64,000 bases of DNA from Candidatus Pacearchaeota archaeon (lineage in GTDB: Archaea > Nanobdellota > Nanobdellia > Pacearchaeales > GW2011-AR1). Positions 1-31,333 of the stretch are shown here, in pieces. The notes beneath the pieces were generated by a model. The model was not told the DNA's origin, did not search any database, and was given only the letters and a program-made list of their open reading frames with translations. The translations under genes were made by a program, and so were the position numbers. The stretch covers positions 5,033-69,032 of the forward strand of contig JAFCDA010000001.1 in the NCBI GenBank assembly GCA_017609915.1, given 5' to 3'. Numbering within the stretch: position 1 is the stretch's first letter; every line of letters begins with the position of its first letter.

Positions 1-557
1 TTCAGGGGACTAGAAATCTAATTAATGCATGTGAAAAAAATAAAGTTAAAAAAATAATTTTTATGAGTTCATTAGATATTAAATTTAATACACCTTATGG
101 AAAATCTAAATTAAAAGCAGAAGAGATTATTAAAAACTCTAAATTAAAATATGTATTTTTAAGGCCTACTGCAATATATGGTGAAGGATTTAAAACAGGA
201 GTAAACTCTCTTGTTAAACTTGTAAAAAAAACACCTGTTTTTCCAATACCTGGTTCTGGAAAAAATCTATATCAACCACTTTATGTTAAAGATCTGATTT
301 TATTAATAAAACAAATTCTTGATAAAAATAAATTTAATAATAAAGTTTATTTTTTAGGTGGAAGTAAGATTATGAATTTAAATCAATTAGTAAATTTGAT
401 AAGTTTTAATCTTGGAAAGAAAACAATTAAAATTCATTTGCCAATTAAATCTAAAAACTTTAAATTTAATAAGATCTGCAGTAATGATAAGATCAAAAAA
501 GATTTTGATTTTGATCCTCTTCCGATAACAAAGGGGGTTCAGAAGATATTATGCTAG
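1..557 (+). CDS. NAD-dependent epimerase/dehydratase family protein, 5' partial (frame open from window edge)
   Basis: Frame open from nt 3: GTRNLINACEKNKVKKIIFMSS...YGKSKLKAE resembles the SDR sugar epimerase catalytic YxxxK region; only C-terminal part present. Confidence 0.7.
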   Translation, partial: QGTRNLINACEKNKVKKIIFMSSLDIKFNTPYGKSKLKAEEIIKNSKLKYVFLRPTAIYGEGFKTGVNSLVKLVKKTPVFPIPGSGKNLYQPLYVKDLILLIKQILDKNKFNNKVYFLGGSKIMNLNQLVNLISFNLGKKTIKIHLPIKSKNFKFNKICSNDKIKKDFDFDPLPITKGVQKILC

Positions 558-2100
558 AATAATCTGATCTATCAAACCTATAAATTATCAAACTTGGTTG
601 AGAGTTTTGTGCATCTACAAAATAAATCTTAAGAGGGTTTAAATTATTTTCTTGAGGATAAGTATAAGCCCAATCTTGATGAGGTTCATATATTGAAATC
701 ATTAAAAGAGTTATATTAGGATTAGATGCTACTAATTCTTCAAATTCTTCTTTTGTATTTGGAAGCCTTAGGGCTGTTATTTCACCATAAAATTGAATAT
801 GTGGCCAACTTTTTGTTACTATTACATCTTCTGGTTGAGAATTCTCTTTTATCCATAATCCTGCTTGTTTTACTTGCAAATAAGAATCTTTCTTTAATTT
901 AATTAAATTATCTGCGTCTTGTAATTGTAAATACCCAACTGTGCCTAAAAGAACTATTAAAAACAAAACTGCTATGAATTTGCCTTTTTTCCTTATGATC
1001 TCATATAAACTTATTATAAAAGCCCCAGCCATAGCAAAAACTACTGGAAAAATATTTATGATATATCTATCTTCGTTAAAAGCAACTGAAAAACTAACCA
1101 CAAGAATTGGTATTATTATTAATAAAATTAAAAATAAATCTTTTTTTAATTTAAAATCCTTTCCTTTAATTAACATATCAACCCCTATAAATATCTTATA
1201 TAAGGAGAATAATCCTAAGATAAAAAATATTAAAAGAGGCCATGAAAGAAGGGTTGGAAACATATGGATATAAGCCTTAAGATTAGTATATCCATTTGAA
1301 AAATATTCTCCTTCTGCAGGCGCATTCCATCCTCCTGCCTGAGTTATTACAAATCCTCCAAACTCAAAATAACCCCAAATAAGATATGGTGAAAGAATCA
1401 ATGCAAAGATTAATGCAGCTATCCATAATTCCTTTTTCTTAATAAATCTTAATCTTTCTGTTATTAAAAGATAAATTAAAAGAGAAAATAAGATTGTTGC
1501 TGTTGGTAATTTAAATAAGGTTCCGATTGCAACCATTACTGCTGCCCAGTATAATGATTTAACTGAGCCATCTTTAATATACTTATAAAGAAAAAAAGCA
1601 GAAAAAGTATAAAATGCTAAGGAAGGCACTTCAACTAAAAGTCTAAAACTGTAAAAAATATTAAGGTAAAAAACAGACATTAAAAATGTAGCTACTAAAG
1701 CTGCTTTTTTGTTATACAATTCTTTTGTAAAATAATATATTCCAAAAACAGAAGCCATTGATATAATCAACAAGAATAATCTTGGTAAAAACTCATTATA
1801 AGCTAATCTTAAAAATAATGACATGATAAAAGGAAAAAAAGCAGGCCTTACTACAAGAAATTCATATTCTAAGCCTAATGCCCAGGCTCTTGCCATACTC
1901 ATATATTCTGCCCCATCCCACCATAAAGGCTGGTTTTGGGTCATTAGAAAATAATATAAACGAATTATAAGAGCAAAGGCAATGATTAATGTAAAAATCA
2001 AATTGTGTGGTTTTTTTATCCAGTTAATTATTTTATCTGTTCTTTTTTCTATTGTTTTTTCTACATCTCCTACATCTTTTAAAAGTTCTTGTGCATCCAT
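493..2100 (-). CDS. GT-C fold membrane glycosyltransferase (GT39 / ArnT / PMT-like)
   Basis: 535 aa, about 11-13 hydrophobic helices in N-terminal two thirds plus soluble C-terminal domain, architecture of dolichyl/undecaprenyl-phosphate-sugar dependent GT-C enzymes; 65-nt convergent overlap with epimerase. Confidence 0.55.
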   Translation of the reverse strand: MDAQELLKDVGDVEKTIEKRTDKIINWIKKPHNLIFTLIIAFALIIRLYYFLMTQNQPLWWDGAEYMSMARAWALGLEYEFLVVRPAFFPFIMSLFLRLAYNEFLPRLFLLIISMASVFGIYYFTKELYNKKAALVATFLMSVFYLNIFYSFRLLVEVPSLAFYTFSAFFLYKYIKDGSVKSLYWAAVMVAIGTLFKLPTATILFSLLIYLLITERLRFIKKKELWIAALIFALILSPYLIWGYFEFGGFVITQAGGWNAPAEGEYFSNGYTNLKAYIHMFPTLLSWPLLIFFILGLFSLYKIFIGVDMLIKGKDFKLKKDLFLILLIIIPILVVSFSVAFNEDRYIINIFPVVFAMAGAFIISLYEIIRKKGKFIAVLFLIVLLGTVGYLQLQDADNLIKLKKDSYLQVKQAGLWIKENSQPEDVIVTKSWPHIQFYGEITALRLPNTKEEFEELVASNPNITLLMISIYEPHQDWAYTYPQENNLNPLKIYFVDAQNSQPSLIIYRFDRSDYSSIISSEPPLLSEEDQNQNLF

Positions 2101-2158
2101 TTTTTTATTTTATTCTTTTTCTATTATCTCTATAAACATTTAAGTTTAATTATCTAGC

Positions 2159-2183
2159 AAGGGCACATCCCTTCCGTAACCCT
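2159..2183 (-). promoter_or_regulatory. conserved 5' leader hairpin motif (coding strand AGGGTTACGGAAGGGATGTGCCCTT) 60-80 nt upstream of GT-C ATG
   Basis: Near-identical 25-mer also at 34173-34197 upstream of secF; can fold as 6-bp stem with GGAAGGGAT loop. Confidence 0.5.
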
Positions 2184-2192
2184 ATCTTTAAG

Positions 2193-2237
2193 CTTATCTT
2201 CTCAGCTGAGCATCTCTCCCTATGCTTATAAGATATT
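2193..2237 (-). promoter_or_regulatory. about 44-nt conserved promoter module ending in TATA box (cttataagatatt)
   Basis: cttatcttctcagctgagcatctctccctatgcttataagatatt; homologous copies at 31501-31544, 33107-33150, 34201-34244. Confidence 0.45.
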
Positions 2238-2289: not shown

Positions 2290-2601
2290 TTAACTAAGTA
2301 AACTAAAAATTCCTTTTTGAACTAAGAAAAGAGTCACTATAATCACCATAAATCTTGGCATTATCATCATTGTACTTAAAATAATAACTCCTGCTGAAAG
2401 AATATCTAAAACACTTGTTATATTTATTTTAATTGAAAAAATAAGTCCTTTTACTAATAAGAACAAACCTAAAAATAAAATAAATTTGTCAGAAATTATA
2501 TTAAAAATACCAAATATCCAAAAACATATTGCAATAAAAATATCCATTACTCCTAATATTTTAATTATCATCTTTATTAAGAGCCTCCAAAACCTGTTCA
2601 A
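2290..2601 (-). CDS. small hydrophobic membrane protein, hypothetical
   Basis: 103 aa ORF, 3 predicted TM segments; start may be at internal Met (2550) avoiding overlap with upstream gene. Confidence 0.3.
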   Translation of the reverse strand: MNRFWRLLIKMIIKILGVMDIFIAICFWIFGIFNIISDKFILFLGLFLLVKGLIFSIKINITSVLDILSAGVIILSTMMIMPRFMVIIVTLFLVQKGIFSLLS

Positions 2602-3676
2602 TAGAAATACTTTCTTCTAACTCAGGGACATATTGATTAATAAGAAAATATTTTTCTAATAAAGGAGAAGTTAATTTTTTAAGATTATCATAATCTTCTA
2701 TTTCCCAATCAGGAGTTGAAAAAAACAAAGAAATTATTTTTTTATTTAATGCTGAAGCAAGATGTAGTGCCATTGTGTCTCCACATATAATTGTATCACA
2801 AATATTTACAACAGAAGCAAATTCTCTTAAAGAATTATTTGGGTCATTACTCATTAAAGAAATTCCTTGTTCTTTCATTTCTTTTATTAAATTTTCTTGT
2901 TTTTCAATTTCATTTGGACCTGCTAAAATAATTATCTTATTTCCTTGCAATCTTCTTATTAATTGTTTTATTTTTTCATTATTCCAAAATTTAACCCATC
3001 TATCTGAAGAACCTATATTTATCCCAATTATTTTATCATTATCAGAAAGATTATTTTGTAGTTTAAATTTTTCTGAAAACTCAATCTCTTTATTAGTTAA
3101 ATTAAAAACAGGTCTTTCTTTAGAATAATAAGATTCTAATTCACAAGCTTCTATAGTAAGTTGCTGATAAGTTTTTCTATTCTTTATCTTAACATGATTT
3201 AAAAAAGCTGTTTCTAAATAAGGTTCTGCAAATTCATTAAAATATGAGGTTGTTCCATTATCAAAAAAATAACCTAACTTTTCATTTGCTTTTACTAAAT
3301 TTGCCAATAATGTTGCAGGAGTGTCTATTTCTAGGGCAAATAAAATATCAAATTCTTCTTGTTGAATCCTTAAAATATTTTCAGGGTTATATGCAAGAAC
3401 TTTATCTACTAAAGGATTATTTTTAAGTAAATCAACAGATTCTGGATTAGTCATCCAATAAACTAAAATATCTGGCCCATATTTTTTCTTTAGAGCTGGT
3501 AAAATGCATGTTGTTCTTAAAACATCTCCCATTTCTCCAAGTTTTATAATCAAGATTTTTTTTGAGTATTCTTGTGCAAATTTGCATTCTTCACAAGACT
3601 TGTAATTTTCAGTAGATAATGTATCACAAGCATATTTTTCATTGAAAAACCTGCATTTTTTATTCCATTTTATCAT
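2561..3676 (-). CDS. GT9 family glycosyltransferase (heptosyltransferase-like) with N-terminal Cys4 motif
   Basis: ILIIKLGEMGDVLRTTCILPALKKKYP and C-terminal Rossmann half are typical of RfaF/WaaC-type GT9; N-terminus CRFFNEKYAC...CEEC Cys cluster. Confidence 0.65.
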   Translation of the reverse strand: MIKWNKKCRFFNEKYACDTLSTENYKSCEECKFAQEYSKKILIIKLGEMGDVLRTTCILPALKKKYGPDILVYWMTNPESVDLLKNNPLVDKVLAYNPENILRIQQEEFDILFALEIDTPATLLANLVKANEKLGYFFDNGTTSYFNEFAEPYLETAFLNHVKIKNRKTYQQLTIEACELESYYSKERPVFNLTNKEIEFSEKFKLQNNLSDNDKIIGINIGSSDRWVKFWNNEKIKQLIRRLQGNKIIILAGPNEIEKQENLIKEMKEQGISLMSNDPNNSLREFASVVNICDTIICGDTMALHLASALNKKIISLFFSTPDWEIEDYDNLKKLTSPLLEKYFLINQYVPELEESISIEQVLEALNKDDN

Positions 3677-4080
3677 TTTAATTTTTCTAATTCTATTTTT
3701 AACTTTTCAATTGAGTCTATGATATGAACTTTTCCAACTATTATCACACTAATATCACTAATAGATTCTTTAATATCTCTATCTGTTTTTAATCCAATTA
3801 CTTTTTTTCCTATAGCTTGTGCATAACCCATTTCCCAAGCAGTTCCTGCTCCAACATAAATTCCATTTAAAACTCCAACCATAATCTCACATTTATTTAT
3901 CTCTTCTAAATCTCTTTCAGAAATTTCTTTAATTTTGTTTAAATCTCCATCATATAATCCAGCATCTCTATGAGGTAAAAATGTTTCAAAACCTAAATCT
4001 TTACAGATTTTATCTATTTGCTCTAAAAAATTTCTGTTTTTTTGTTCACACAAAGGGCCTGCAATATAAATCTTCACCAT
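3673..4080 (-). CDS. nucleoside 2-deoxyribosyltransferase-like protein
   Basis: KIYIAGPL N-terminus and GTAWEMGYAQAIGKKV C-terminal motif of the Nuc_deoxyrib_tr/Rcl fold. Confidence 0.5.
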   Translation of the reverse strand: MVKIYIAGPLCEQKNRNFLEQIDKICKDLGFETFLPHRDAGLYDGDLNKIKEISERDLEEINKCEIMVGVLNGIYVGAGTAWEMGYAQAIGKKVIGLKTDRDIKESISDISVIIVGKVHIIDSIEKLKIELEKLK

Positions 4081-4133: not shown

Positions 4134-5054
4134 TTAATCCAAACTCCTAGTGCTCTTTGTTTCTTGTTTTCTCCAACCATCTACATATTTTTGTTTTTTG
4201 AACTTTAGCTCATAAAAAGCTCTTAAATAAATGTAAAATCTTGTTGAAAAAAGAGGTATTGTGAAAAAAACTTCTCGAAGGTTTTTTGGGTAAGTTAAAG
4301 CAAAAATAGCTCCTTGTTTTATTTCATTGAAAAAAGATTTGGTTCTTGGCATATCTGGAGCAATTTTATTCAAACTTTCATGTCCTTTTATGTTTCTTAT
4401 TTTTTGTATTTTAAAATCTTTCCAGTTTTGAGGATTTATAACATAAACTTCTACTTTTGGTAAATATTTTATTTTATATCCTTGCTTATGAAATAAATAA
4501 GAAATAACACCATCTTCAGAAGATTCTAAAGGGAATCCTTGTAAAACTCCGTTTCTAATCGCAAATAAATAACCTGAACATTCAAAAAACTTTTTCTGAT
4601 TTGAAAATCTTAATCTTGTTTTATGAATCCCATCAAAGGCTACATGAGAAGCATAGCCCCAAAACTTTTCTCTAGGATTTAATAAAACAGGTCTTCCAGT
4701 TATACATCCAACTTCTTTGTCTTTAAATGCTTTCATGATTTCATTTACTGTGTTTTGTGAAACATAAACATCTCCATCAGTAAGGATGATAATGTCATCT
4801 TTGTTCTGAGAATAAATTCTTTCTAAGAAAATGTTTAAAGCATAACTTTTACCTTCTCCTGGATCTAAGAAAAAGTCTATTTTGTTTTTCTTAAACTCTT
4901 TTTTATACTTTTTATTTAGAAATTCCTCTGTTTTTAGAAAAGGGTCTATTATTGTTATTTTAAATTCTTGCTTAATATTTTGATTAAGAAAACAATCAAT
5001 TGCCCTTGAAGTTGCTTTTGGTTCTCCATAAGAGGTTATAATTATGTTAATCAT
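4134..5054 (-). CDS. GT2 family glycosyltransferase
   Basis: IIITSYGEPKATSRAIDCFLNQ...ILTDGDVYV (DxD) GT-A fold signature. Confidence 0.7.
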   Translation of the reverse strand: MINIIITSYGEPKATSRAIDCFLNQNIKQEFKITIIDPFLKTEEFLNKKYKKEFKKNKIDFFLDPGEGKSYALNIFLERIYSQNKDDIIILTDGDVYVSQNTVNEIMKAFKDKEVGCITGRPVLLNPREKFWGYASHVAFDGIHKTRLRFSNQKKFFECSGYLFAIRNGVLQGFPLESSEDGVISYLFHKQGYKIKYLPKVEVYVINPQNWKDFKIQKIRNIKGHESLNKIAPDMPRTKSFFNEIKQGAIFALTYPKNLREVFFTIPLFSTRFYIYLRAFYELKFKKQKYVDGWRKQETKSTRSLD

Positions 5055-9307: not shown

Positions 9308-9413
9308 GATTTTTTTGAGAAGTTGATTGTTTATAAAGTTATATTGGATATACTTAATAAATTGTTTTTTTGTTCTAGTAACATTTATATAGTTTTCCAA
9401 AGGTATTTTACTT

Positions 9414-10829: not shown

Positions 10830-10830
10830 A

Positions 10831-24938: not shown

Positions 24939-25997
24939 ATGGCAGTAGATAGTAAAATTGACGGGCATAAATTAATCCTGCATCCAAAAAGGGTGGCTGA
25001 ATGGAAAGAAAAAGGAGATTGTTATCCAATATATATTGAGATAGGTCCTACAAATATATGTAATCATAGATGTATTTTTTGTGCTTTAGATTATCTTGGA
25101 CATGAAGGATTTAATATAGACACAGAACTTATGATTAATACCTTAAAAGAAATCGGGGAAAAGGGTGTTAAATCTATAATGTTTGCCGGAGAAGGAGAAC
25201 CTCTTGCGCATAAAGATATTGGATTATTTGTTCAAACAGCAAAACAATCTGGAATAGATGTTTCTATTACAACAAATGGGGTATTATTTAATAAAGAAAA
25301 AGCAGAACAATTTCTTCATCATTTATCTTGGATAAGGTTTAGTATTGATGCTGGAACTTCTGAAACTTATAATAAAGTTCATAGAGGGGGAGAAAATGAT
25401 TTTAACAAAGTTATAGAAAACATAAAAAATGCTGTTGAAATTAAAAAAGCAAAAAATCTAAACACTGTGATTGGAATTCAGTTTTTAATGATTCCTGATA
25501 ATCTAAATGATGTTCTTAAACTTGCTCAAATAGCAAAAGATATTGGGGCAGATAATTTGCAAATAAAACCTTATTCTCAGCATCCAAAAAGTGAAAATAG
25601 TTTAGTACTATATTATGAAGATTATGCGCATTTAGAAAAAGAACTTGAAAAGTTTAATTCACCTGATTTTAAAATCTTCTTTAGAAAACAGACAATGCAA
25701 AGAGTTGAACAAGGAATCAATTATTCTGGATGTCATGGGCTTCCATTTTTTGCTCTAATAGATGCAAAAGGAAACATAATTCCATGCAATCTTTTTTATG
25801 ATATTCCAGAATTTACATATGGAAATTTACATGAAAACAGTTTTTCAGAAATTTGGAAAAGTGAAAAAAGACAACAAGTTTTACAAAGAATAAGAGAAAA
25901 AGGAATTGAAGATTGCAGACATGCATGTAGATTAGATGTTATTAACAGATATTTACAAAGATTAAAAAATCCTCAATCACATGATAATTTTGTGTGA
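24939..25997 (+). CDS. radical SAM/SPASM domain protein (paralog of C-terminal half of preceding gene)
   Basis: IEIGPTNICNHRCIFCALDY radical SAM motif; C-terminal GCHGLPFFALIDAKGNIIPCNLFYD..ENSFSEIWKSE parallels SPASM region of 23134..24774. Confidence 0.8.
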   Translation: MAVDSKIDGHKLILHPKRVAEWKEKGDCYPIYIEIGPTNICNHRCIFCALDYLGHEGFNIDTELMINTLKEIGEKGVKSIMFAGEGEPLAHKDIGLFVQTAKQSGIDVSITTNGVLFNKEKAEQFLHHLSWIRFSIDAGTSETYNKVHRGGENDFNKVIENIKNAVEIKKAKNLNTVIGIQFLMIPDNLNDVLKLAQIAKDIGADNLQIKPYSQHPKSENSLVLYYEDYAHLEKELEKFNSPDFKIFFRKQTMQRVEQGINYSGCHGLPFFALIDAKGNIIPCNLFYDIPEFTYGNLHENSFSEIWKSEKRQQVLQRIREKGIEDCRHACRLDVINRYLQRLKNPQSHDNFV

Positions 25998-26067: not shown

Positions 26068-27015
26068 ATGATGAATAAAGTATTAATTATAAAAACTGGG
26101 TATTCTGAGGTTTTAGATAGAAGAAATAATTCAAGAGTAGTAAGTTTTGGAGATGTATTAAGAACAACTCCATTATTACATCTTTATAAAGACAATCATA
26201 TAACTTGGGTCACAGATGAAAAAGCGATTCCATTACTTAAACACAACCATTTAATTAATCGTCTACTCGTTTTAGATTTTATTTCAATATCTCAATTACA
26301 AACAGAAGAATTTGATGTTGTGATAAATCTTGAAAAAATTCCTGGAATATGTGCACTTGCAGACAAAATAAGAGCAAGAAGAAATAGATATGGATTTACT
26401 TTTAATAGTCAAACTGGAGAAGCAGAAGCATATGATAAATCCCATGATATCCTTAGCCTGAGTACAAATCAAGAATTAAAAAGAAGTAATAAAAAAACTG
26501 CCCAAGAACTTTTATTTGAAATAGTTGGGGAAGAATGGAAAGGGGAAGAATATGTTCTTGGATATCAACCTAAAACAGAGGAAAAATACACTGTTGGTTT
26601 AAACAGCATTGTAGGACTTAAATGGCCAACTAAAGCCTGGCCAGCAGAAAATTGGGATGAATTAACTGAAATATTAAAAAATGGAGGGATAGTAGTAAGC
26701 AGACAAGACCAACAACCTAAAGAAACATTAACAGACCTCTTTAAGTATATGGATTGGATAAATTCTTGTAAATTAATTGTTAGCAATGATAGTCTTGGAA
26801 TGCATTTGGGAATAGCATTAAAGAAAAAAATTTTAGGATTATTTGGAGCAACATCTCCTTATGAAGTGCATTTTTATGGTGATGGAAAACCAATTATGCC
26901 AAATCCTATCCCAAGTTGTTTACCTTGTTTTAGAGGTTCTTGTGAAAGAAGAAAAAATTGTATAAATGAGATTACTCCTGAAAAAGTATATCAAGAGATT
27001 AGGAAGCTTATATAA
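26068..27015 (+). CDS. GT9 family glycosyltransferase (heptosyltransferase-like) with C-terminal Cys4 motif
   Basis: KVLIIKTGYSEVLDRR...FGDVLRTTPLLH GT9 N-terminus; C-terminal CLPCFRGSCERRKNC. Confidence 0.65.
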   Translation: MMNKVLIIKTGYSEVLDRRNNSRVVSFGDVLRTTPLLHLYKDNHITWVTDEKAIPLLKHNHLINRLLVLDFISISQLQTEEFDVVINLEKIPGICALADKIRARRNRYGFTFNSQTGEAEAYDKSHDILSLSTNQELKRSNKKTAQELLFEIVGEEWKGEEYVLGYQPKTEEKYTVGLNSIVGLKWPTKAWPAENWDELTEILKNGGIVVSRQDQQPKETLTDLFKYMDWINSCKLIVSNDSLGMHLGIALKKKILGLFGATSPYEVHFYGDGKPIMPNPIPSCLPCFRGSCERRKNCINEITPEKVYQEIRKLI

Positions 27016-27066: not shown

Positions 27067-28032
27067 ATGAATAAAAAAGATTTAGAAACATATGGTTCTG
27101 GTTTATTAGATTTTCATACTCATTCAACTTTCTCTGATGGGGGAGATACCCCAACACAACTTGTAGAAAGAGCTAAAAAACAGGGGGTTACTGCAATGGC
27201 TTTAACAGACCATCATGGTCATAAAGGATTACCTGAATTTATAGCTGCATGTAAGCAATATGATATATTTCCAATACCTTTTGGAGTTGAAATTGCTGCA
27301 GAACTTCCTGAAAAAGTTTTAACACCACAAGATATGTCTTCTCCTGATTTAATTATTCTTGGAAAAAATCCAAATGTAAAACCTATGAAAGGATATCAAG
27401 AAATATATTTTAATGATTTGGAAAAAAGGCATTTACCTGAAATATTAGCTGGATTAAGAAAGGTTGGTTTTGAATTACCTGTTGTAAATCTAAAAGAACA
27501 ATGTGCTTCTTTTCATGCTCCTCCAGATATACTTCATGATTTTGTTCATTATAAAAAAAATATGCAAGTTTTAAAAAATTATGTTAAAACAAAGGATTCA
27601 AATGTTAGTGATGCAGACATTGAAAAAAAACCAATAGCATTTGCTAATAGATGGTTATATGCTGTAGGTATGCCTGCTTATACAGCAAGATTTAAAGGTT
27701 TTAGCCTTGATAGTGCACTTCAATTAGTTGAAGAGATGAACTGTAAACTATTTATTGCACACCCTGGAGGAGATTATGGGTTTTTAACAGATGCTATGTT
27801 AAATTATTTTACTGAGAAGAAAATCCATGGAATTGAGATAAGAAGTTATCTTAACAGCCCTGAACAAAATGCTAAATTTGATAAATTAGCTAAAGAACAC
27901 AATCTAATAAGATCTGGAGGTTCTGATTGTCATGGTGCCAAGGGGCCTTTTAGAATGGGAATATATGATCGTCCACAAAATCAACTTCCTAAAGATGTTT
28001 TAGAAGAGCTTATGGACTGGTTGCCTTCTTAA
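27067..28032 (+). CDS. PHP domain metal-dependent phosphoesterase
   Basis: LDFHTHSTFSDGGDTPTQLVERAKKQGVTAMALTDHH PHP motif I/II. Confidence 0.7.
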   Translation: MNKKDLETYGSGLLDFHTHSTFSDGGDTPTQLVERAKKQGVTAMALTDHHGHKGLPEFIAACKQYDIFPIPFGVEIAAELPEKVLTPQDMSSPDLIILGKNPNVKPMKGYQEIYFNDLEKRHLPEILAGLRKVGFELPVVNLKEQCASFHAPPDILHDFVHYKKNMQVLKNYVKTKDSNVSDADIEKKPIAFANRWLYAVGMPAYTARFKGFSLDSALQLVEEMNCKLFIAHPGGDYGFLTDAMLNYFTEKKIHGIEIRSYLNSPEQNAKFDKLAKEHNLIRSGGSDCHGAKGPFRMGIYDRPQNQLPKDVLEELMDWLPS

Positions 28033-28224: not shown

Positions 28225-29136
28225 ATGGACCCAATACAAATCCCTCAAGGTTACAATTATATATCTGCATTTTTAACAATGAGATGCAATCTTAATTGTA
28301 GTTTTTGCTTAAATTCAATTGACAAAAGCAGAGAATTTAATAGGACAAAATTTAAAGAGCTTTCTGGAGAGCAATGGGTTAAAGCATTAAATAGGATTGA
28401 ATCACGTCCAGAAGTTCCAGTAACCTTTTCAGGAGGAGAGCCTTTTTTACATCCAGATTTTCTTTATATCCTTAAGAATCTTAAAAAAGATTTAAACATA
28501 GATATTTTAACTAATTTATCTTTTGAAGTAGCTGTTGAAAAATTTTTAAAAGAAATAGACCCAGAAAGAATAAAGAGAAATGTTCCTTATGCTTGTATTC
28601 GTGTTTCTTATCATCCAGAACAAATGGGAAATGGTGCAGAACTTATTGAAACAGTTAAAAAACTAAAAGATGCTGGATTTAGTATTGGTGTATGGAGTGT
28701 TTTATATCCTTCTTTTGAAAATCTCTCTGCAATAAATCAAATGCAATTTAGATGTATAGATGCAGGAATTGATTTTAGATTAAAAGAATATACTGGAACC
28801 TATAAGGGAGACTTATATGGAGATTATTCTAAATATTCTAACTCAGTTTTATCAAATAAATTAAAAAAATGCTTATGTAAGGGCTCTGAATTATTAATAG
28901 CTCCAAATGGAAATATTTACAAATGTCACAGTGATTTATTTAGTGAAGAATTTCCTATAGGAAATATTCTTGACCCTAATTTCCAAATTAAAAACGAATT
29001 TAGAAAATGTGAGAAATATGGTCAGTGCCATCCATGTGATGTAAAACTTAAGACAAATTATAAACAAGAATTAGGGAATACCTCTGTTGAAATAAAAGAA
29101 ATAGAAGATAATTCTCAACCGAAAGTTATAGTTTAA
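28225..29136 (+). CDS. radical SAM protein with SPASM-like C-terminal Cys cluster
   Basis: ISAFLTMRCNLNCSFCLNS CxxxCxxC motif; C-terminal CKGSELLIAPNGNIYKCHSD...CEKYGQCHPCD. Confidence 0.75.
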   Translation: MDPIQIPQGYNYISAFLTMRCNLNCSFCLNSIDKSREFNRTKFKELSGEQWVKALNRIESRPEVPVTFSGGEPFLHPDFLYILKNLKKDLNIDILTNLSFEVAVEKFLKEIDPERIKRNVPYACIRVSYHPEQMGNGAELIETVKKLKDAGFSIGVWSVLYPSFENLSAINQMQFRCIDAGIDFRLKEYTGTYKGDLYGDYSKYSNSVLSNKLKKCLCKGSELLIAPNGNIYKCHSDLFSEEFPIGNILDPNFQIKNEFRKCEKYGQCHPCDVKLKTNYKQELGNTSVEIKEIEDNSQPKVIV

Positions 29137-29223
29137 ATTTTTTGGTATTTATAAAAATATGATGAGATAAAGAAGAGGGATTAAGTTATTCAGATAATAT
29201 CTCTTGATTGAGCTTATAAAATA

Positions 29224-30840
29224 TTAAAATGTTTTTTTTATAGATTTTTTAACTAATTTTAAATCCTTAAATAATTTTTTTATAACTGATTTTATCACCA
29301 TTAAATCCTCTTTATCAAGAGAATGTGAAATAATTATTAAAGACAAGTAAAGTAAAATAAACAAAGAGGTTAAAATTATAATTGAAAAAACATTAATTGT
29401 AACTTTTTCTATTAAATAAAATAAAACTCCTGTTGGGATTATTGAAACTAAGATTATAGTAAACATCTTTCTTTTTAAAGGTATAAATGAAAGATGTTTT
29501 TTTGTTTGTATAATCAAAAGGGTATTTAAAAAGATTATAGATAAAACAGTTGCAAGAGAAGCTCCGATTAAACCATTTGAATTATCTAAAGAAAACAAAA
29601 CAGGTATTGGAACTAATATTGAATTTAATATTAAATTAACAATTGCAGATATAGATATATTAAACAAGATTAACTTAGATTTACCTAACATTGAAATAAG
29701 ATTTGTTGAAATCATAAATAATGCAGAAATAAATGTTCCAATTAGCAAAAATTTAAGGGCAATTTGTGCAATAACATATTGACTTCCAAAAAGGATATTT
29801 AATGATGCTCCTGAAAAAAAGAATATTAAAATAAAAATTGGAAGAATTGCCATAAATATCCATTTATTTACTTGTTTACTAAGCTGTTTGATTAAAGCAT
29901 TATTTTTTGCAGAATATTGTCTTGTTATAAGTGGAAAAAATAACTGCATAAATAATTGTGGGACAATCATTATAAGCATTGCAATTGGCACAGCTGCATT
30001 ATAAAACCCAACTTCTACTGCAGATTTATAATAACCTAAAGAAATAGTATCAATCCAATGAAAAATAATAGATATAGCTGCAAAAAATAATAATGGCCAG
30101 GAATATTGAAAAAACTCTTTACTAATCTTTGAATAATCTTTTTTCTCATAAGAACCAAAGATTTTATTTATTTTATTTTTACAAACTAAATAAGCAGCAA
30201 ATAATGTAAGAATTGAACCAGATATGTAAGACCAAACAACAGCATTTCCTCCTGAATTAAAACCTATGAAAATAAGAATTATAAGCACACCTACACGGAC
30301 TAAATTTTGAAAAATATTAAAAATAAAAGAATACCATCCAATCTTTTCAAACCCTCTAAGCACTGTGAGAAATATACTTGCAAGCATTACAGCAAGAATT
30401 GAAAAACTCATTATTTTTAGAAAAATAGAAAGGCTTGGATTATGAAATATTTGTATTGAAATAAAATCTGATAAACCAATTAAAACTATTGAAGCAATTA
30501 TCCCAGAGATTAAATAAAATCTCAGTGTTTTTCTAAATAAATACCTCATCTCATTAATCTTTTTTCTCTCTCTTAATAATGGGACAAATCTTAATAATCC
30601 ATCTACAAAACCAAAAGAAGCAATTGTGATAAAAAGAGGGATTACAGATAAAACAAGAGAAAATAATCCATAAATTTCTGGGCCATAATAACGAGCAATA
30701 ATTATCCTATAAGCATACATTAAAACTTTTGATAAAAAAAGTCCAATAAAAACAATAAAAGAAGATTTCATAATTAGTTTAAGAGATTTATTAAGCTGAT
30801 TTTCTCTTGTAATATGTTCCTGATTTTTCAAATGTTCCAT
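29224..30840 (-). CDS. polysaccharide/oligosaccharide flippase (MOP/Wzx family)
   Basis: 538 aa, about 14 TM helices, MATE-like Wzx architecture, located in glycan locus. Confidence 0.65.
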   Translation of the reverse strand: MEHLKNQEHITRENQLNKSLKLIMKSSFIVFIGLFLSKVLMYAYRIIIARYYGPEIYGLFSLVLSVIPLFITIASFGFVDGLLRFVPLLRERKKINEMRYLFRKTLRFYLISGIIASIVLIGLSDFISIQIFHNPSLSIFLKIMSFSILAVMLASIFLTVLRGFEKIGWYSFIFNIFQNLVRVGVLIILIFIGFNSGGNAVVWSYISGSILTLFAAYLVCKNKINKIFGSYEKKDYSKISKEFFQYSWPLLFFAAISIIFHWIDTISLGYYKSAVEVGFYNAAVPIAMLIMIVPQLFMQLFFPLITRQYSAKNNALIKQLSKQVNKWIFMAILPIFILIFFFSGASLNILFGSQYVIAQIALKFLLIGTFISALFMISTNLISMLGKSKLILFNISISAIVNLILNSILVPIPVLFSLDNSNGLIGASLATVLSIIFLNTLLIIQTKKHLSFIPLKRKMFTIILVSIIPTGVLFYLIEKVTINVFSIIILTSLFILLYLSLIIISHSLDKEDLMVIKSVIKKLFKDLKLVKKSIKKTF

Positions 30841-30904
30841 AAAGAAGATAAGAATTTGTTTTTTTTAAAGCTATATGTAGGAATTATATGTTTTTTAATC
30901 TAAT

Positions 30905-31333
30905 TCAAAAATATTTGTTTGGATATTTTTCTCTTAATACTAAATGTCTTATTAAACTAAATTCCCTAACATAAAGCATATTTTTATGCCCAAAGTATAA
31001 TAAATCTAATATTGAATGAAATATCATTCCAATTAAAGCAAAATAAAATCCTCTCCAGAAAAAAGATAAAATAAAAACAAGAATTAAAAATTCTATTGTG
31101 TGGAAAACCATCATTATTGGTTTTTTTAAATTTTTACTTAGTTTTTCAAGATAATTATAAGAATTTTTTAAATCCCAATCTTTTTTTCTTGCTACATACC
31201 ATAAGTAATGGTCAAAGTCTATTAAAATAGAACTTAAAAAAACTAAAAGAGTTTGGAAGATAGTTAATGAAAATAACCAATATAATAATGCTGAAAATAT
31301 TGCTCCTAATATGATGTGGTGTTTTGGCAGCAT
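30905..31333 (-). CDS. membrane protein, possible YdjM/DUF457-like membrane-bound hydrolase
   Basis: 142 aa, 4 TM, MLPKHHIILGAIFS N-terminus with conserved His residues. Confidence 0.35.
   Translation of the reverse strand: MLPKHHIILGAIFSALLYWLFSLTIFQTLLVFLSSILIDFDHYLWYVARKKDWDLKNSYNYLEKLSKNLKKPIMMVFHTIEFLILVFILSFFWRGFYFALIGMIFHSILDLLYFGHKNMLYVREFSLIRHLVLREKYPNKYF

What the first reader, a model, noticed from the sequence alone, without database searches (positions are those of the whole stretch)
1..31333. 31-kb surface-glycan biosynthesis island with eight glycosyltransferases from five families and no obvious oligosaccharyltransferase
The island encodes a GT-C/GT39-like enzyme, GT9 x2, GT2 x2, GT4 and GT6. 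It also encodes two SDR epimerases, a DegT aminotransferase, an FkbM methyltransferase, six radical SAM enzymes, phospho/sulfo-handling enzymes and a Wzx-type flippase. No AglB/STT3 or Wzy is seen in the window. The GT family mix (GT9, GT6) is bacterial- or eukaryote-like rather than typical of archaeal N-glycosylation loci. This suggests an unusual, heavily decorated (methylated, aminated, possibly phosphorylated or sulfated) surface glycan.
Basis: partly seen in the sequence, partly recalled or inferred. Interest (0 to 1): 0.6.

Follow-up and report, generated by a model that had tools for sequence, protein, structure and literature searches.

The report
DPANN archaeal surface-glycan gene locus
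This is a real, native cluster of sugar-building genes in a tiny DPANN archaeon. It is most likely the variable part of the lineage's ordinary protein N-glycosylation locus, cut off by the window edge just before the transferase gene, and it contains an uncharacterised radical-SAM/thiamine enzyme cassette shared with many bacteria.

Summary
The gene content is largely confirmed. There are seven glycosyltransferases, not eight: GT-C/PMT_2, GT9 x2, GT2 x2, GT4 and GT6. There are also six radical SAM enzymes, two SDRs, DegT, FkbM and Wzx, and no AglB or Wzy in the window. Composition does not differ from the rest of the window, so this is not a foreign island.

The host is a DPANN (Woesearchaeota-like) archaeon. 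In six of seven relatives the GT-C orthologue lies 1.5-6 kb from AglH and AglB/STT3. One relative shows the whole layout: AglB...GT-C...radical-SAM cassette...Wzx-SecDF. The window ends about 0.5 kb past GT-C, inside an SDR gene. The missing oligosaccharyltransferase is therefore most probably a window-edge effect, although I could not retrieve the flank.

The "sulfatase" lacks the formylglycine motif, so sulfation is unsupported.

The most novel piece is 21.0-29.1 kb. It holds three SPASM radical SAM enzymes, a minimal PDH-E1-like thiamine enzyme fused to one of them, a GT9 and a B12-radical SAM. This cassette keeps its gene order in DPANN archaea and at least six bacterial phyla and matches no curated family. 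I infer that it makes and transfers a C-branched deoxysugar.

The parts
1..557 (+). 3' part of an SDR (NAD-dependent epimerase/dehydratase family) gene, cut by the window edge
   Evidence: The frame is open from base 3. The Pfam Epimerase match covers only profile positions 137-239 of 240.
493..2100 (-). GT-C fold membrane glycosyltransferase (PMT_2, 'GT39-like'), about 10 TM segments
   Evidence: PMT_2 scores 80.5 bits. The family is conserved in DPANN at 45-72 % identity and is named 'glycosyltransferase family 39 protein'. In relatives it lies next to GT2-GtrA-AglH-AglB.
2290..2601 (-). small 3-TM membrane protein, no family match
   Evidence: No family match. It is not similar to the GtrA of relatives.
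2561..3676 (-). GT9a, a heptosyltransferase-family GT-B enzyme with an N-terminal Cys-rich stretch
   Evidence: Glyco_transf_9 scores 59.8 bits. All NCBIfam heptosyltransferase equivalogs fall below their cut-offs. Orthologues are 79 % identical in L046 and 71 % in L049.
3673..4080 (-). nucleoside 2-deoxyribosyltransferase-like protein, role unknown
   Evidence: Nuc_deoxyrib_tr scores 67.6 bits. It keeps this position in L046 and L049.
4134..5054 (-). GT2a, soluble family-2 glycosyltransferase
   Evidence: Glyco_tranf_2_3 and Glycos_transf_2 match. Identity is 87 % in L046 and 75 % in L049.
5345..6037 (+). QueC-type PP-loop enzyme (SGGLDS P-loop, C-x13-CxxCxxC zinc site)
   Evidence: QueC scores 147.6 bits in Pfam. 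TIGR00364 scores 121 bits, below its 150 cut-off. It is syntenic in L046 and L049.
6034..6462 (-). small protein with a twin-arginine signal
   Evidence: The TAT_signal domain passes its cut-off. Two homologues sit at the same place in L046.
6493..8037 (-). B12-binding radical SAM enzyme 1 (putative C-methyltransferase or other B12-radical SAM chemistry)
   Evidence: B12-binding and Radical_SAM domains match. CPYGCDYC is at residue 204. Identity is 89 % in L046 and 79 % in L049.
8147..9307 (-). GT4 glycosyltransferase (the ORF runs to 9517; the likely start is M71 at 9307)
   Evidence: Glycos_transf_1 scores 125.8 bits and Glyco_transf_4 98.4 bits. Homologue alignments begin at residue 59-71 and the L046 protein is 386 aa.
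9414..10829 (+). cytoplasmic alkaline-phosphatase-superfamily protein (Phosphodiest/NPP type); part of the variable middle block
   Evidence: Phosphodiest scores 119.3 bits. There is no TM segment. It is absent from the 43 related loci screened.
10831..11592 (-). PAPS-reductase-family protein with CC...CxxC cysteines and no Cys after them
   Evidence: PAPS_reduct scores 148.2 bits. NF002537 scores 143 bits, below its 154 cut-off.
11666..12874 (-). sulfatase-fold protein without the formylglycine motif (Thr at the nucleophile position), cytoplasmic
   Evidence: Sulfatase scores 172.9 bits. The alignment to 7p24 places T-A-P-A-L opposite S-G-P-S-R. There is no TM segment; the start reads MKKNIIIILVD, so I see no signal peptide.
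13443..15155 (-). B12-binding radical SAM enzyme 2
   Evidence: Domain matches are. CAFQCTFC is at residue 238. Identity to L013 is 51 %.
15814..16686 (+). GT6 glycosyltransferase with a DXD (DAD) motif and a 57-aa basic N-terminal extension
   Evidence: Glyco_transf_6 scores 57.6 bits. NF041524 scores 159.7 bits, below its 250 cut-off. About 35 homologues of 45-86 % identity were found.
16750..17823 (+). SDR, NDP-hexose 4,6-dehydratase-like
   Evidence: Epimerase scores 165 bits and GDP_Man_Dehyd 150 bits. The best NCBIfam match is dTDP-glucose 4,6-dehydratase at 137 bits, below its 365 cut-off.
17820..18911 (+). DegT/DnrJ/EryC1 PLP-dependent sugar aminotransferase
   Evidence: The Pfam match scores 403 bits. 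PseC scores 268 bits and DesI 147 bits, both below their cut-offs.
19024..19932 (+). FkbM-family SAM methyltransferase
   Evidence: Methyltransf_21 scores 80 bits. TIGR01444 scores 113.5 bits, above its 37.7 cut-off.
20002..20973 (+). GT2b with two C-terminal TM-like segments (a topology like polyprenyl-phosphate sugar synthases)
   Evidence: Glycos_transf_2 scores 63.5 bits. TM-like segments are at 236-282 and 285-310.
21052..22473 (+). B12-binding radical SAM enzyme 3, first gene of the conserved cassette
   Evidence: Domain matches are. HpnJ and Sden_1168 models score about 193 bits, below their cut-offs. Identity to L013 is 59 %.
22484..23134 (+). minimal PDH-E1-alpha-like thiamine-diphosphate-binding subunit (216 aa)
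   Evidence: E1_dh scores 71.4 bits. GDG...N aligns with the ThDP/Mg motif of human E1-alpha. Identity to DPANN orthologues is 71-73 %.
23134..24774 (+). fusion of an E1-beta-like pyrimidine-binding domain (residues 1-175) with radical SAM/SPASM enzyme 'rSAM-A' (residues 178-546)
   Evidence: Transket_pyr, Radical_SAM and SPASM match. The rSAM part is 62-72 % identical to proteins in 39 genome loci from archaea and bacteria. The AF2 model has pLDDT 81.5, and the best PDB folds are DesII and BlsE.
24939..25997 (+). radical SAM/SPASM enzyme 'rSAM-B'
   Evidence: Domain matches are. Identity is 60 % to DPANN and 36-50 % to bacterial cassette orthologues.
26068..27015 (+). GT9b, the cassette-linked GT9 glycosyltransferase (C-terminal Cys-rich tail)
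   Evidence: Glyco_transf_9 scores 60 bits. Identity is 61-65 % to DPANN and 38-50 % to bacterial orthologues at the same cassette position. The only PDB sequence match is 3tov.
27067..28032 (+). PHP-domain phosphoesterase (window-specific insert in the cassette)
   Evidence: PHP scores 53.4 bits. The 3',5'-nucleoside bisphosphate phosphatase model scores 79 bits, below its 400 cut-off. There is no counterpart in related loci.
28225..29136 (+). radical SAM/SPASM enzyme 'rSAM-C'
   Evidence: Domain matches are. Identity is 52-68 % to DPANN and 36-54 % to bacterial orthologues.
29224..30840 (-). Wzx/MOP-family lipid-linked oligosaccharide flippase, about 14 TM segments
   Evidence: Polysacc_synt scores 89.6 bits. 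Orthologues occupy the same place in L013, L003 and L007.
30905..31333 (-). small YdjM-like membrane protein, the conserved right-hand end of the locus
   Evidence: The YdjM match is weak. The same gene lies between Wzx (or a B12-radical SAM gene) and SecD in L013 and in the P0012 contig.
31557..34182 (-). secD and secF, housekeeping genes that bound the locus on the right (context)
   Evidence: SecD_SecF_C matches. The same boundary occurs in L013 at 53 % identity and in the P0012 contig.

Best explanation
The region is the native, lineage-typical surface-glycan locus of a DPANN (Woesearchaeota/Nanoarchaeota-like) archaeon. It is most likely the variable 'glycan-building' part of an AglB-anchored protein N-glycosylation locus.

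Proposed working, with each step marked shown or inferred:
1. Soluble enzymes tailor nucleotide sugars in the cytoplasm. A 4,6-dehydratase-like SDR makes a 4-keto-6-deoxy sugar and DegT aminates it. DesII/BlsE-like radical SAM enzymes carry out radical oxidation, deamination or decarboxylation. The E1-like thiamine enzyme, whose beta domain is fused to rSAM-A, adds a two-carbon unit from a 2-oxo acid to the resulting keto sugar. B12-radical SAM enzymes and FkbM methylate. The domain assignments are shown. The chemistry is inferred.
2. GT4, GT2a, GT6, GT9a and GT9b assemble the glycan on a dolichyl-phosphate carrier at the inner face of the membrane (inferred).
3. Wzx flips the lipid-linked glycan to the outer face (family shown, role inferred).
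4. GT2b, which has two C-terminal TM-like segments, and the GT-C enzyme add further sugars outside the cell from a polyprenyl-phosphate sugar (inferred by analogy with AglD/AglS and GtrB/GtrC).
5. AglB transfers the glycan to Asn of surface proteins. AglB and the initiating AglH-type enzyme are not in the window. In relatives they lie just beyond GT-C, which is where the window is cut.
For: - Host: an archaeal S13-S4-S11-RpoD-L18e-L13-S9 operon, RpoF and a 5S rRNA are in the window. The closest homologues are named Nanoarchaeota, Woesearchaeota or Pacearchaeota.
- Native origin: GC, GC3, RSCU and tetranucleotide usage match the rest of the window.
- Left-block synteny: window 0.5-9.3 kb is collinear with L046 at 70-89 % amino-acid identity and with L049 at 56-79 %.
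- Whole-locus synteny: L047 and L013 are two pieces of one 374,879-bp archaeal contig. Together they read AglB (932 aa, WWDYG at 627) - AglH-like - GtrA - GT2 - GT-C - SDR ... B12-rSAM x2 - GT9b - rSAM-B - TPP-alpha - TPP-beta - rSAM-A - rSAM-C - Wzx - YdjM-like - SecD - SecF.
- AglB proximity: AglB lies within 10 kb of the GT-C orthologue in L047, L048, L049, L050, L052 and L055. That is six of seven independent contexts.
- Cassette: its gene order is kept in more than 10 loci from DPANN and bacteria, and in L001 the core genes sit with Wzx, GT9 and Bac_transf genes in a polysaccharide locus.
- Functional link: Rosetta-stone fusions tie the E1-like subunits to rSAM-A. P0012 fuses alpha, beta and rSAM. 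L044 fuses alpha and beta. The window fuses beta and rSAM.
- Fold: rSAM-A is closest to DesII and BlsE, the two solved radical SAM enzymes that act on nucleotide or nucleoside sugars (PMC11434129, PMC3715490).
- Co-occurrence: DegT and SDR genes sit beside the TPP and rSAM genes in bacterial loci L010, L017, L038 and L040.
- Precedent: PDH-E1-like pairs AviB1/B2 and Pau11/12 install two-carbon branches on 4-keto sugars (PMC4425429).
Against: - AglB, AglH and GtrA are not in the 64-kb window. I could not retrieve the 6.4 kb of the source contig that lies outside it.
- The closest relative by identity, L046, has giant FG-GAP and LamG proteins beyond GT-C instead of AglB within 10 kb.
- In the window the gene beyond GT-C is a convergent SDR, an arrangement seen in none of the relatives.
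- No enzyme except the FkbM domain reaches an NCBIfam cut-off, so every substrate assignment is inferred.
- The Foldseek margin of DesII over RiPP maturases is modest: E about 1e-16 against 1e-12, with TM-scores about 0.5.
- rSAM-A has extra invariant cysteines. DesII, from my own knowledge, has no auxiliary cluster.
- GT9 enzymes classically act on lipid A-Kdo or on autotransporter proteins, not on dolichol-linked glycans (my own knowledge).
Confidence: 0.6

Rival explanations
1. It is an AglB-independent glycoconjugate locus. The glycan would be a lipoglycan, glycolipid or capsule-like polymer, or an O-linked glycan. It would be built on a lipid carrier, flipped by Wzx and finished or attached by the GT-C enzyme, which would act as the terminal transferase in place of an oligosaccharyltransferase.
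For: No AglB, AglH, Wzy or initiating phosphoglycosyltransferase is in the window. GT-C/PMT_2 enzymes include protein O-mannosyltransferases and the lipid A-modifying ArnT (Pfam description; relatives annotated as ArnT-like). GT9 enzymes normally act on lipid-anchored acceptors (my own knowledge). The bacterial cassette in L001 lies with Bac_transf and Wzx in a polysaccharide locus. L046 lacks AglB next to GT-C.
Against: In six of seven relatives GT-C is part of a fixed GT-C-GT2-GtrA-AglH-AglB string. One relative shows a continuous locus from AglB to the cassette and SecDF. No polymerase, chain-length regulator or export ABC/OPX component is present.
Confidence: 0.2
2. It is a mosaic neighbourhood rather than one pathway. 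Several independent small operons would merely be adjacent. Examples are a GT-C/GT9/GT2 block, a QueC and deoxyribosyltransferase-like nucleobase module, a phospho-ester module and a sugar-tailoring cassette.
For: Genes change strand at least eight times. QueC, the NDT-like protein, the PAPS-reductase-like protein and the PHP protein have no established glycan role. The 9.4-15.2 kb block is absent from relatives and is replaced by other genes in L045 and L046.
Against: The left block, including QueC and the NDT-like gene, is collinear in L046 and L049. The right block is collinear in L013 and L003. The whole stretch lies between AglB and SecDF in one relative. A variable middle region is usual in surface-glycan loci (my own knowledge).
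Confidence: 0.12
3. It is a secondary-metabolite cluster (a RiPP or glycosylated natural product). The SPASM radical SAM enzymes would be peptide maturases and the GTs would decorate a small molecule.
For: SPASM radical SAM enzymes are typical RiPP maturases. The NCBIfam and Foldseek lists include SuiB, CteB, SkfB, PqqE and anSME. PDH-E1-like pairs are known from antibiotic sugar pathways (PMC4425429).
Against: No precursor-peptide gene, protease, dedicated exporter or regulator was seen. All RiPP-family scores are far below their cut-offs. The best fold matches are the sugar-nucleotide enzymes DesII and BlsE. In L001 the core genes (rSAM-A, rSAM-B, E1-like pair) lie in a Wzx/GT9/Bac_transf polysaccharide locus. 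The locus is a fixed feature between AglB and SecDF in relatives.
Confidence: 0.04
4. It is a recently acquired bacterial genomic island, that is, horizontal transfer of an LPS- or O-antigen-type cluster into an archaeon.
For: GT9, GT6 and the rSAM/TPP cassette have bacterial counterparts. rSAM-A is as similar to bacterial proteins (62-72 %) as to archaeal ones (69-72 %). In crude NJ trees the DPANN GT9b and rSAM-C sequences form one clade among bacterial sequences.
Against: Composition and codon usage cannot be told apart from the flanking ribosomal and RNA polymerase genes. No integrase, tRNA target or repeats lie at the borders. The only integrase is at 58.3 kb. The locus position and content are conserved among several DPANN relatives. 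Any transfer of the cassette was therefore old and has since been inherited vertically.
Confidence: 0.04

Closest known systems
Archaeal AglB-dependent N-glycosylation (agl) gene clusters, e.g. Haloferax volcanii aglB-aglJ...aglS and Methanococcus agl loci
   Same: Soluble GT2 and GT4 enzymes, sugar-nucleotide tailoring enzymes, a MOP/Wzx-type flippase (the AglR role) and a GT-C enzyme with a membrane-anchored GT2 (the AglS/AglD roles) are all clustered. In relatives the cluster is physically anchored to aglB and an AglH-type PF00953 gene.
   Different: AglB and AglH are not in this window. The locus contains GT9 x2, GT6, six radical SAM enzymes and a thiamine-dependent enzyme. To my knowledge none of these is among the characterised Agl proteins. 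No component is an equivalog of a named Agl protein; Agl16 scores 109 bits against a 575 cut-off.
Bacterial Wzx/Wzy-dependent O-antigen and capsule loci, and LPS-core heptosyltransferase (GT9) genes
   Same: A Wzx flippase, GT9-family transferases, DegT/SDR deoxy-amino-sugar genes and an FkbM methyltransferase are present. There is a hypervariable middle region. The cassette is shared with bacterial polysaccharide loci that carry Bac_transf and Wzx.
   Different: There is no Wzy, no chain-length regulator, no initiating phosphoglycosyltransferase and no ADP-heptose genes (GmhA, HldE) in the window. The host is an archaeon without LPS. The GT9 scores are far below the heptosyltransferase equivalog cut-offs.
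TDP-desosamine early steps (DesIV 4,6-dehydratase, DesI aminotransferase, radical SAM DesII) combined with PDH-E1-like two-carbon branching enzymes (AviB1/AviB2, Pau11/Pau12)
   Same: The same enzyme classes occur together: a 4,6-dehydratase-like SDR, a DegT aminotransferase, a radical SAM enzyme whose model is closest to DesII, and an E1 alpha/beta-like ThDP enzyme with the GDG...N motif. The precedent for C2 branching is in PMC4425429 and DesII is described in PMC11434129.
   Different: Sequence identity to DesII is only 14-16 %. rSAM-A has additional invariant cysteines and a SPASM domain. There are three SPASM radical SAM enzymes, not one. The E1-like subunits are cut down to 216 and about 175 aa, and the beta part is fused to the radical SAM enzyme. 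The product goes to a cell-surface glycan, not an antibiotic. No step has been tested.
GT6 family: vertebrate ABO and alpha-1,3-Gal transferases, and Bacteroides ovatus BoGT6a
   Same: The Pfam GT6 domain aligns over residues 58-277 with BoGT6a and human GTA/GTB. The DXD metal-binding motif is present, as in the vertebrate enzymes.
   Different: Bacteroides GT6 has NXN and is metal-independent, whereas this protein has DAD. It has a 57-residue lysine/arginine-rich N-terminal extension and no TM anchor. NCBIfam Gltr_6 scores below its cut-off at 159.7 against 250. The host is an archaeon.
Three-component periplasmic glycan modification systems (GtrA flippase, GtrB GT2 polyprenyl-phosphate sugar synthase, GtrC/GT-C transferase)
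   Same: A GT-C enzyme and a GT2 with two C-terminal TM-like segments are present. Relatives have GT2-GtrA directly beside the GT-C gene.
   Different: In the window the small membrane protein next to GT-C is not GtrA-like, and GT2b is not the orthologue of the GT-C-adjacent GT2 of relatives. The true partners probably lie off the window.

Membership tests
Archaeal AglB-dependent N-glycosylation locus | Oligosaccharyltransferase AglB/STT3 (PF02516, WWDYG motif) | tested here: not met
   There is no STT3 hit in any window ORF and no tblastn hit with a lineage AglB. It is present 1.5-6 kb from the GT-C orthologue in six of seven relatives, with WWDYG in L047. The source-contig flank could not be retrieved.
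Archaeal AglB-dependent N-glycosylation locus | Initiating dolichyl-phosphate HexNAc-1-P transferase (AglH type, PF00953) | tested here: not met
   Not in the window. It lies adjacent to AglB in relatives.
Archaeal AglB-dependent N-glycosylation locus | Cytoplasmic glycosyltransferases plus a lipid-linked oligosaccharide flippase, clustered | tested here: met
   GT2 x2, GT4, GT6, GT9 x2 and a Polysacc_synt/Wzx protein are clustered.
Archaeal AglB-dependent N-glycosylation locus | Glycan shown to be N-linked to surface proteins | not testable with these tools
   This needs glycoproteomics.
Wzx/Wzy-dependent polysaccharide locus | Wzy polymerase, chain-length regulator and initiating phosphoglycosyltransferase | tested here: not met
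   There are no Wzy_C, Wzz, Bac_transf or PF00953 hits. Only two small proteins in 1-34 kb remain unassigned, at 2290-2601 (no family) and 30905-31333 (only a weak YdjM hit).
GT9 (ADP-heptose heptosyltransferases) | Pfam PF01075 above the gathering score | tested here: met
   The scores are 59.8 and 60.0 bits against a cut-off of 22.
GT9 (ADP-heptose heptosyltransferases) | Equivalog-level match to WaaC/WaaF/WaaQ, and ADP-heptose synthesis genes (GmhA, HldE, GmhB) available | tested here: not met
   All NCBIfam heptosyltransferase models score well below their cut-offs. No SIS, PfkB or CTP_transf gene is in the window. HldE-like and SIS genes accompany only cassette subtype II, not the GT9b-containing subtype I.
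GT6 | PF03414 above the gathering score and a catalytic-domain alignment with solved GT6 structures | tested here: met
   The score is 57.6 bits against a cut-off of 25. The protein aligns to 4ayj and to ABO transferases over residues 58-277.
GT6 | DXD metal-binding motif (vertebrate type) versus NXN (Bacteroides type) | tested here: met
   'FDADM' aligns with 'FNANL' of BoGT6a.
Formylglycine-dependent sulfatases | (C/S)-x-P-x-R motif that is converted to formylglycine | tested here: not met
   The query has T-A-P-A-L at that position. The protein should not be called a sulfatase.
PAPS/APS reductase (CysH) | Score above the equivalog cut-off and a C-terminal catalytic Cys (ECGLH) | tested here: not met
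   The score is 143.1 bits against a cut-off of 154. The sequence has CC and CxxC cysteines, like the iron-sulfur site of APS reductases (my own knowledge), and no Cys after CTHC.
PDH-E1-like sugar C2-branching enzymes (AviB1/AviB2 type) | Alpha subunit with the ThDP/Mg motif GDG-x(25-30)-N, and a beta subunit with a pyrimidine-binding domain | tested here: met
   E1_dh and Transket_pyr domains match. GDG...EDN aligns with GDG...ENN of human E1-alpha.
PDH-E1-like sugar C2-branching enzymes (AviB1/AviB2 type) | [quoted passage not shown] | not testable with these tools
   This is inferred from gene context only. Direct similarity to AviB1/B2 was not measured.
DesII/BlsE-like sugar-nucleotide radical SAM enzymes | CX3CX2C cluster and the closest fold among solved radical SAM enzymes | tested here: inconclusive
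   CNYRCTYC is at residue 216. Foldseek ranks DesII (E 1e-16) and BlsE (1e-12) first, but identity is 14-16 %, TM-scores are about 0.5 and RiPP maturases follow closely. NCBIfam rSAM_desII and BlsE models hit rSAM-B only weakly.

The most novel reading that the evidence does not exclude
The 21.0-29.1 kb cassette comprises rSAM-A, rSAM-B, rSAM-C, a PDH-E1-like thiamine enzyme, GT9b and a B12-radical SAM enzyme. It would encode a so far undescribed pathway in which radical SAM enzymes and a thiamine enzyme together build a C-branched or chain-extended sugar, which a dedicated GT9 enzyme then installs on a surface glycan. The pathway is shared, with conserved gene order, between DPANN archaea and at least six bacterial phyla (Omnitrophota, Planctomycetota, Nitrospirota, Desulfobacterota, Fibrobacterota, Patescibacteria). 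Its core enzyme is 62-72 % identical across the two domains. The archaeal form is a minimal version in which the E1-beta domain is fused to the radical SAM enzyme.
Probability: 0.3. Interest if true: 0.65.

Novelty: new variant of a known kind. Interest (0 to 1): 0.4.

Why it matters
As stated, the finding is mostly ordinary. It is a surface-glycan or N-glycosylation locus whose missing oligosaccharyltransferase is best explained by where the window was cut.

Two things give it some value.

First, it documents how Woesearchaeota-like DPANN archaea organise glycosylation. These cells are uncultivated and host-dependent, and their surface presumably mediates attachment. A variable glycan-building block is held between an AglB-AglH-GtrA-GT2-GT-C string on the SecY side and Wzx-SecDF on the other side.

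Second, the locus contains a widespread, very strongly conserved and uncurated cassette of radical SAM, thiamine and GT9 enzymes. This points to unexplored sugar chemistry in many uncultivated bacteria and archaea. The cassette is compact enough, especially in the fused archaeal form, to be tested by heterologous expression.

Tried and rejected
1. Recovering the source contig to look for AglB beyond the window. Exact-protein look-ups found no record. Cluster look-up gave only 'NCBI, JGI, contig 70,449 bp' with no accession. An exact 45-mer from the window start was not in metagenome contigs. A GT-C-based metagenome scan returned relatives only.
2. A compositional island or recent horizontal transfer. 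Rejected on GC, GC3, RSCU and tetranucleotide usage.
3. ORF 35226-37982 (918 aa) as a possible AglB. It is a CotH-kinase and beta-helix protein.
4. The 28225-29136 radical SAM enzyme as an anaerobic sulfatase maturase for the neighbouring 'sulfatase'. Rejected because the sulfatase-fold protein has no Cys/Ser target motif, and because this radical SAM enzyme is a fixed member of the GT9 cassette in loci where I saw no sulfatase gene.
5. A phosphonate pathway (B12-radical SAM P-methyltransferase-like hits plus a thiamine enzyme). No PEP mutase is in the window, and the thiamine enzyme is E1-type, not phosphonopyruvate-decarboxylase-type. L048 does carry a PEP mutase and TPP_enzyme_N/C set.
6. 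A heptose origin for the cassette product. GmhA-like and HldE-like genes accompany only cassette subtype II, which lacks GT9b and rSAM-C, so this was not transferred to the window.
7. The small 3-TM protein as GtrA, and GT2b as the GT-C-adjacent GT2 of relatives. No similarity was found.
8. Literature searches for the cassette and for DPANN glycan loci found nothing specific.

Full report
**Observation.**
The glycosyltransferases are as follows.
- GT-C/PMT_2 membrane enzyme at 493-2100(-).
- GT9 at 2561-3676(-) and 26068-27015(+).
- GT2 at 4134-5054(-) and 20002-20973(+).
- GT4 at 8147-9517(-). Homologue alignments and the 386-aa L046 protein place its real start at M71, base 9307.
- GT6 at 15814-16686(+).

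That makes seven glycosyltransferases from five families, not eight. An eighth, GT1-like gene (EryCIII_C domain) lies far outside at 55679-56923.

Six radical SAM enzymes are present and all carry CX3CX2C. Three are B12-binding (6493, 13443, 21052). Three are SPASM-type (23134, 24939, 28225). DegT, FkbM and a Wzx-type flippase with about 14 TM segments are confirmed.

The SDR at the window start is only the 3' part of a gene. Its frame is open from base 3, so the locus runs off the left edge. The second SDR scores best as an NDP-hexose 4,6-dehydratase.

Almost nothing reaches an NCBIfam cut-off. The exceptions are the FkbM domain and the TAT-signal domain. All labels are therefore at family or domain level.

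**Phospho- and sulfo-handling genes.**
The domains are there: Phosphodiest at 9414, PAPS_reduct at 10831, Sulfatase at 11666 and PHP at 27067. The functional reading is weak for three reasons.
- The sulfatase-fold protein has T-A-P-A-L where sulfatases carry (C/S)-x-P-x-R, the site converted to formylglycine. It has no TM segment and, from reading its N-terminus, no signal peptide. It is not a canonical sulfatase.
- The PAPS-reductase-like protein is just below the equivalog cut-off. It has CC and CxxC cysteines and no Cys after them.
- No sulfotransferase, ATP sulfurylase or APS kinase was found.

This 9.4-15.2 kb block is also the part not shared with close relatives. L045 carries CDP-alcohol phosphatidyltransferase, cytidylyltransferase-like and ABC genes in the equivalent place.

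**Host and composition.**
The window carries an archaeal S13-S4-S11-RpoD-L18e-L13-S9 operon, RpoF, a lone 5S rRNA and four tRNAs. The nearest homologues of several island proteins are named Nanoarchaeota, Woesearchaeota, Pacearchaeota or Nanoarchaeia. The host is therefore a low-GC DPANN archaeon.

| Measure | Island (1-31333) | Rest of window |
|---|---|---|
| GC | 26.6 % | 27.6 % |
| GC3 | 13.7 % | 13.5 % |

The RSCU correlation between the two parts is r = 0.993. The tetranucleotide correlation with the whole window is at least 0.986 for every 8-kb chunk. The region is native, not a recent insertion.

**Is the missing oligosaccharyltransferase real?**
Within the window, yes. There is no STT3, PF00953, GtrA or Wzy hit. 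tblastn with a lineage AglB and AglH finds nothing in six frames.

Comparative context changes what this means. The GT-C protein belongs to a family conserved across DPANN at 45-72 % identity. In L047, L048, L049 and L050 the orthologue is followed by a fixed string: GT2 (about 235 aa) - GtrA - AglH-like PF00953 - STT3/AglB (909-999 aa) - SpoIIM - IF-2B - prefoldin - SecY. The L047 AglB has WWDYG at residue 627. tblastn adds L052 and L055. That makes six of seven independent contexts.

L049 is collinear with window 0.5-9.3 kb.

| Gene | Identity to L049 |
|---|---|
| GT4 | 79 % |
| B12-rSAM1 | 79 % |
| QueC | 75 % |
| GT2a | 75 % |
| NDT-like | 76 % |
| GT9a | 71 % |
| GT-C | 56 % |

In L049, AglB lies 3.8 kb beyond GT-C.

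L047 and L013 are two pieces of one 374,879-bp archaeal contig. Together they show a locus of about 34 kb running AglB ... GT-C ... B12-rSAM x2 - GT9b - rSAM-B - TPP-alpha - TPP-beta - rSAM-A - rSAM-C - Wzx - YdjM-like - SecD - SecF. The window shows the same right-hand end (rSAM-C, Wzx, YdjM-like, SecD, SecF) and ends about 0.5 kb past GT-C.

The one exception is L046, the closest relative by identity at 70-89 %. There, giant FG-GAP and LamG surface proteins follow GT-C. I could not retrieve the 6.4 kb of the source contig outside the window. The conclusion that AglB lies just off the window, or at least that this is the AglB-linked locus of the lineage, is an inference from synteny. AglB is reported for the DPANN superphylum (PMC8993221).

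**The conserved cassette.**
The protein at 23134-24774 is a fusion. An E1-beta-like pyrimidine-binding domain (residues 1-175) is joined to a radical SAM/SPASM enzyme (rSAM-A, residues 178-546). A 216-aa E1-alpha-like protein precedes it, and that protein keeps the GDG...N thiamine-diphosphate/Mg motif.

The rSAM-A part is strikingly conserved. The 120 best database hits all score at least 618 bits. Stand-alone 367-aa proteins from Omnitrophota, Planctomycetota, Nitrospirota, Desulfobacterota, Fibrobacter, Elusimicrobia and Patescibacteria are 62-72 % identical to it, which is as close as the archaeal homologues. About a hundred positions are invariant in a 31-sequence alignment, including nine cysteines.

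Mapping the window proteins onto 43 loci shows a cassette in conserved order: GT9b - rSAM-B - E1-alpha - E1-beta - (GT2 of 254 aa in bacteria) - rSAM-A - rSAM-C, usually with a B12-radical SAM enzyme nearby. It occurs in more than 10 loci from both domains.

Clustering separates two subtypes.
- Subtype I has GT9b, rSAM-C and B12-rSAM. It comprises 16 loci, including the window.
- Subtype II has SIS/GmhA-like, HldE-like and SDR genes with short E1 subunits.

The heptose link therefore belongs to subtype II, and I do not transfer it to the window.

Gene fusions tie the parts together functionally. P0012 fuses alpha, beta and rSAM. L044 fuses alpha and beta. The window fuses beta and rSAM.

In a deltaproteobacterial contig the core genes lie with Wzx, three GT9 genes and a Bac_transf gene, so the setting is polysaccharide synthesis.

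Crude NJ trees of GT9b and rSAM-C place the DPANN sequences as one clade among bacterial ones. This fits an old interdomain transfer followed by vertical descent.

No NCBIfam model covers these proteins; the best match is 96-120 bits against cut-offs of 380 or more. Three literature searches found no description.

**Likely mechanism (inferred).**
An AlphaFold model of the fusion has mean pLDDT 81.5. Compared with the PDB, it is closest to DesII (E about 1e-16) and BlsE (1e-12). DesII and BlsE are the solved radical SAM enzymes that act on a nucleotide sugar and a nucleoside sugar respectively (PMC11434129, PMC3715490). RiPP maturases such as SuiB, CteB, SkfB and anSME follow at 1e-12 to 1e-11.

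The same strand of the window encodes a 4,6-dehydratase-like SDR and a DegT aminotransferase. DegT and SDR genes also sit directly beside the E1 and rSAM-A genes in bacterial loci L010, L017, L038 and L040. PDH-E1-like pairs (AviB1/B2, Pau11/12) are the known way to add a two-carbon branch from pyruvate to a 4-keto sugar (PMC4425429).

My best model has six steps.
1. The SDR converts an NDP-hexose to a 4-keto-6-deoxy sugar.
2. DegT converts that to an amino sugar.
3. A radical SAM enzyme performs deamination or oxidation to give a keto sugar.
4. The E1-like enzyme adds a C2 branch.
5. B12-rSAM and FkbM methylate at carbon and oxygen.
6. GT9b transfers the product.

The remaining GTs build the rest of the glycan on a dolichyl phosphate carrier, and Wzx flips it. 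GT2b, which has two C-terminal TM-like segments, and GT-C may add sugars on the outside. AglB then attaches the glycan to protein.

Only the domain assignments, motifs, synteny and fold ranking are shown. Every substrate and step is inferred. The fold margin is modest and rSAM-A has extra cysteines beyond the core cluster.

**The GT6.**
The GT6 aligns with Bacteroides BoGT6a and human ABO transferases over residues 58-277. It carries DAD where BoGT6a has NAN. It is thus a DXD-type, presumably metal-dependent GT6 in an archaeon. It has about 35 homologues at 45-86 % identity in metagenomes. One of these, in L044, lies in the same kind of locus with radical SAM enzymes, an E1 fusion, FkbM and GT9.

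**Comparison and verdict.**
The locus works like, and is most probably part of, an archaeal agl N-glycosylation cluster. On the window alone it fails the defining membership test, because AglB and AglH are absent. It is not a Wzx/Wzy O-antigen locus, because Wzy, a chain-length regulator and an initiating transferase are missing. It is not a recently imported island.

Its enzyme repertoire is unusual for characterised archaeal pathways: GT9, GT6, six radical SAM enzymes and a thiamine enzyme. That repertoire recurs in related DPANN genomes.

I rate the finding as a new variant of a known kind, with interest 0.4. The cross-domain radical SAM/thiamine/GT9 cassette is the part worth following up.

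Noticed in passing
window 34540-38736 (+): A DUF4956 protein, a 918-aa CotH-kinase-like protein with a C-terminal beta-helix, and a VTC-domain protein form a tight three-gene unit just past secDF and two tRNA genes. A CotH/VTC/DUF4956 trio in a DPANN archaeon is unexplained. It might relate to polyphosphate or surface-protein phosphorylation.
   Followed up: no
window 3673-4080 (-) and 5345-6037 (+); L046, L049: A bona fide-looking QueC (SGGLDS P-loop, Cys4 zinc site) and a nucleoside 2-deoxyribosyltransferase-like protein sit inside the glycan block. They keep that position in two relatives at 71-76 % identity. Their role in a glycan locus is unexplained. A nucleobase-related or 7-deazapurine-related substituent cannot be excluded.
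   Followed up: partly
window 2561-3676 (-) and 26068-27015 (+): Both GT9 proteins carry Cys-rich stretches. GT9a has one at the N-terminus (C..C...CEEC). GT9b has one at the C-terminus (CLPCFRGSCERRKNC). These could be zinc-ribbon or metal sites. I do not recall such sites in LPS heptosyltransferases.
   Followed up: no
L047/L013 contig; L048-L050; window 31557-34182: In this lineage the glycosylation locus is bracketed by protein-export genes. SecY, prefoldin, SpoIIM and AglB lie on one side, and Wzx, a YdjM-like gene and SecD/SecF on the other.
   Followed up: partly
L046 11897-20943: In the closest relative the GT-C gene is followed by two giant predicted surface proteins, an FG-GAP protein of 1618 aa and a Laminin_G_3 protein of 1382 aa. 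They are candidate glycoprotein acceptors or adhesins.
   Followed up: no
window 39781-39895 (+): A 5S rRNA gene stands alone next to tRNA-Leu(CAA), with no 16S or 23S rRNA in the 64 kb.
   Followed up: no
window 49192-49275 (+): tRNA-Leu(AAG) is embedded inside the ribosomal-protein/RNA polymerase operon, between the RpoD (Rpb3-like) and L18e genes.
   Followed up: no
window 52600-56923 (-): A second small envelope-related group contains a DUF2334 (polysaccharide-deacetylase-like) protein, two unassigned ORFs, the 277-aa ORF at 54874-55707 whose N-terminus reads like a lipoprotein signal, and a GT1-like (EryCIII_C) glycosyltransferase of 414 aa.
   Followed up: no
window 51374-52210 (-) and 58332-59216 (-): A Cas4-like PD-(D/E)XK nuclease and a tyrosine recombinase (XerA/phage-integrase family) are present. 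Neither lies at a border of the glycan locus.
   Followed up: no
L048 1-2736: A marine relative carries a phosphonate set at the variable position of the same locus: PEP mutase fused to a cytidylyltransferase, a TPP_enzyme_N/C decarboxylase and an Fe-ADH. Glycan decoration appears to differ between relatives.
   Followed up: no
L042 (contig labelled uncultured Desulfobacteraceae): This 'bacterial' contig has the archaeal-type cassette: short E1-alpha at 63 % identity, rSAM-B at 60 %, and E1-beta directly abutting rSAM-A. Its rSAM-C branches next to the clade that holds both the DPANN and most bacterial sequences. It is either a mis-binned DPANN contig or a recent transfer.
   Followed up: no
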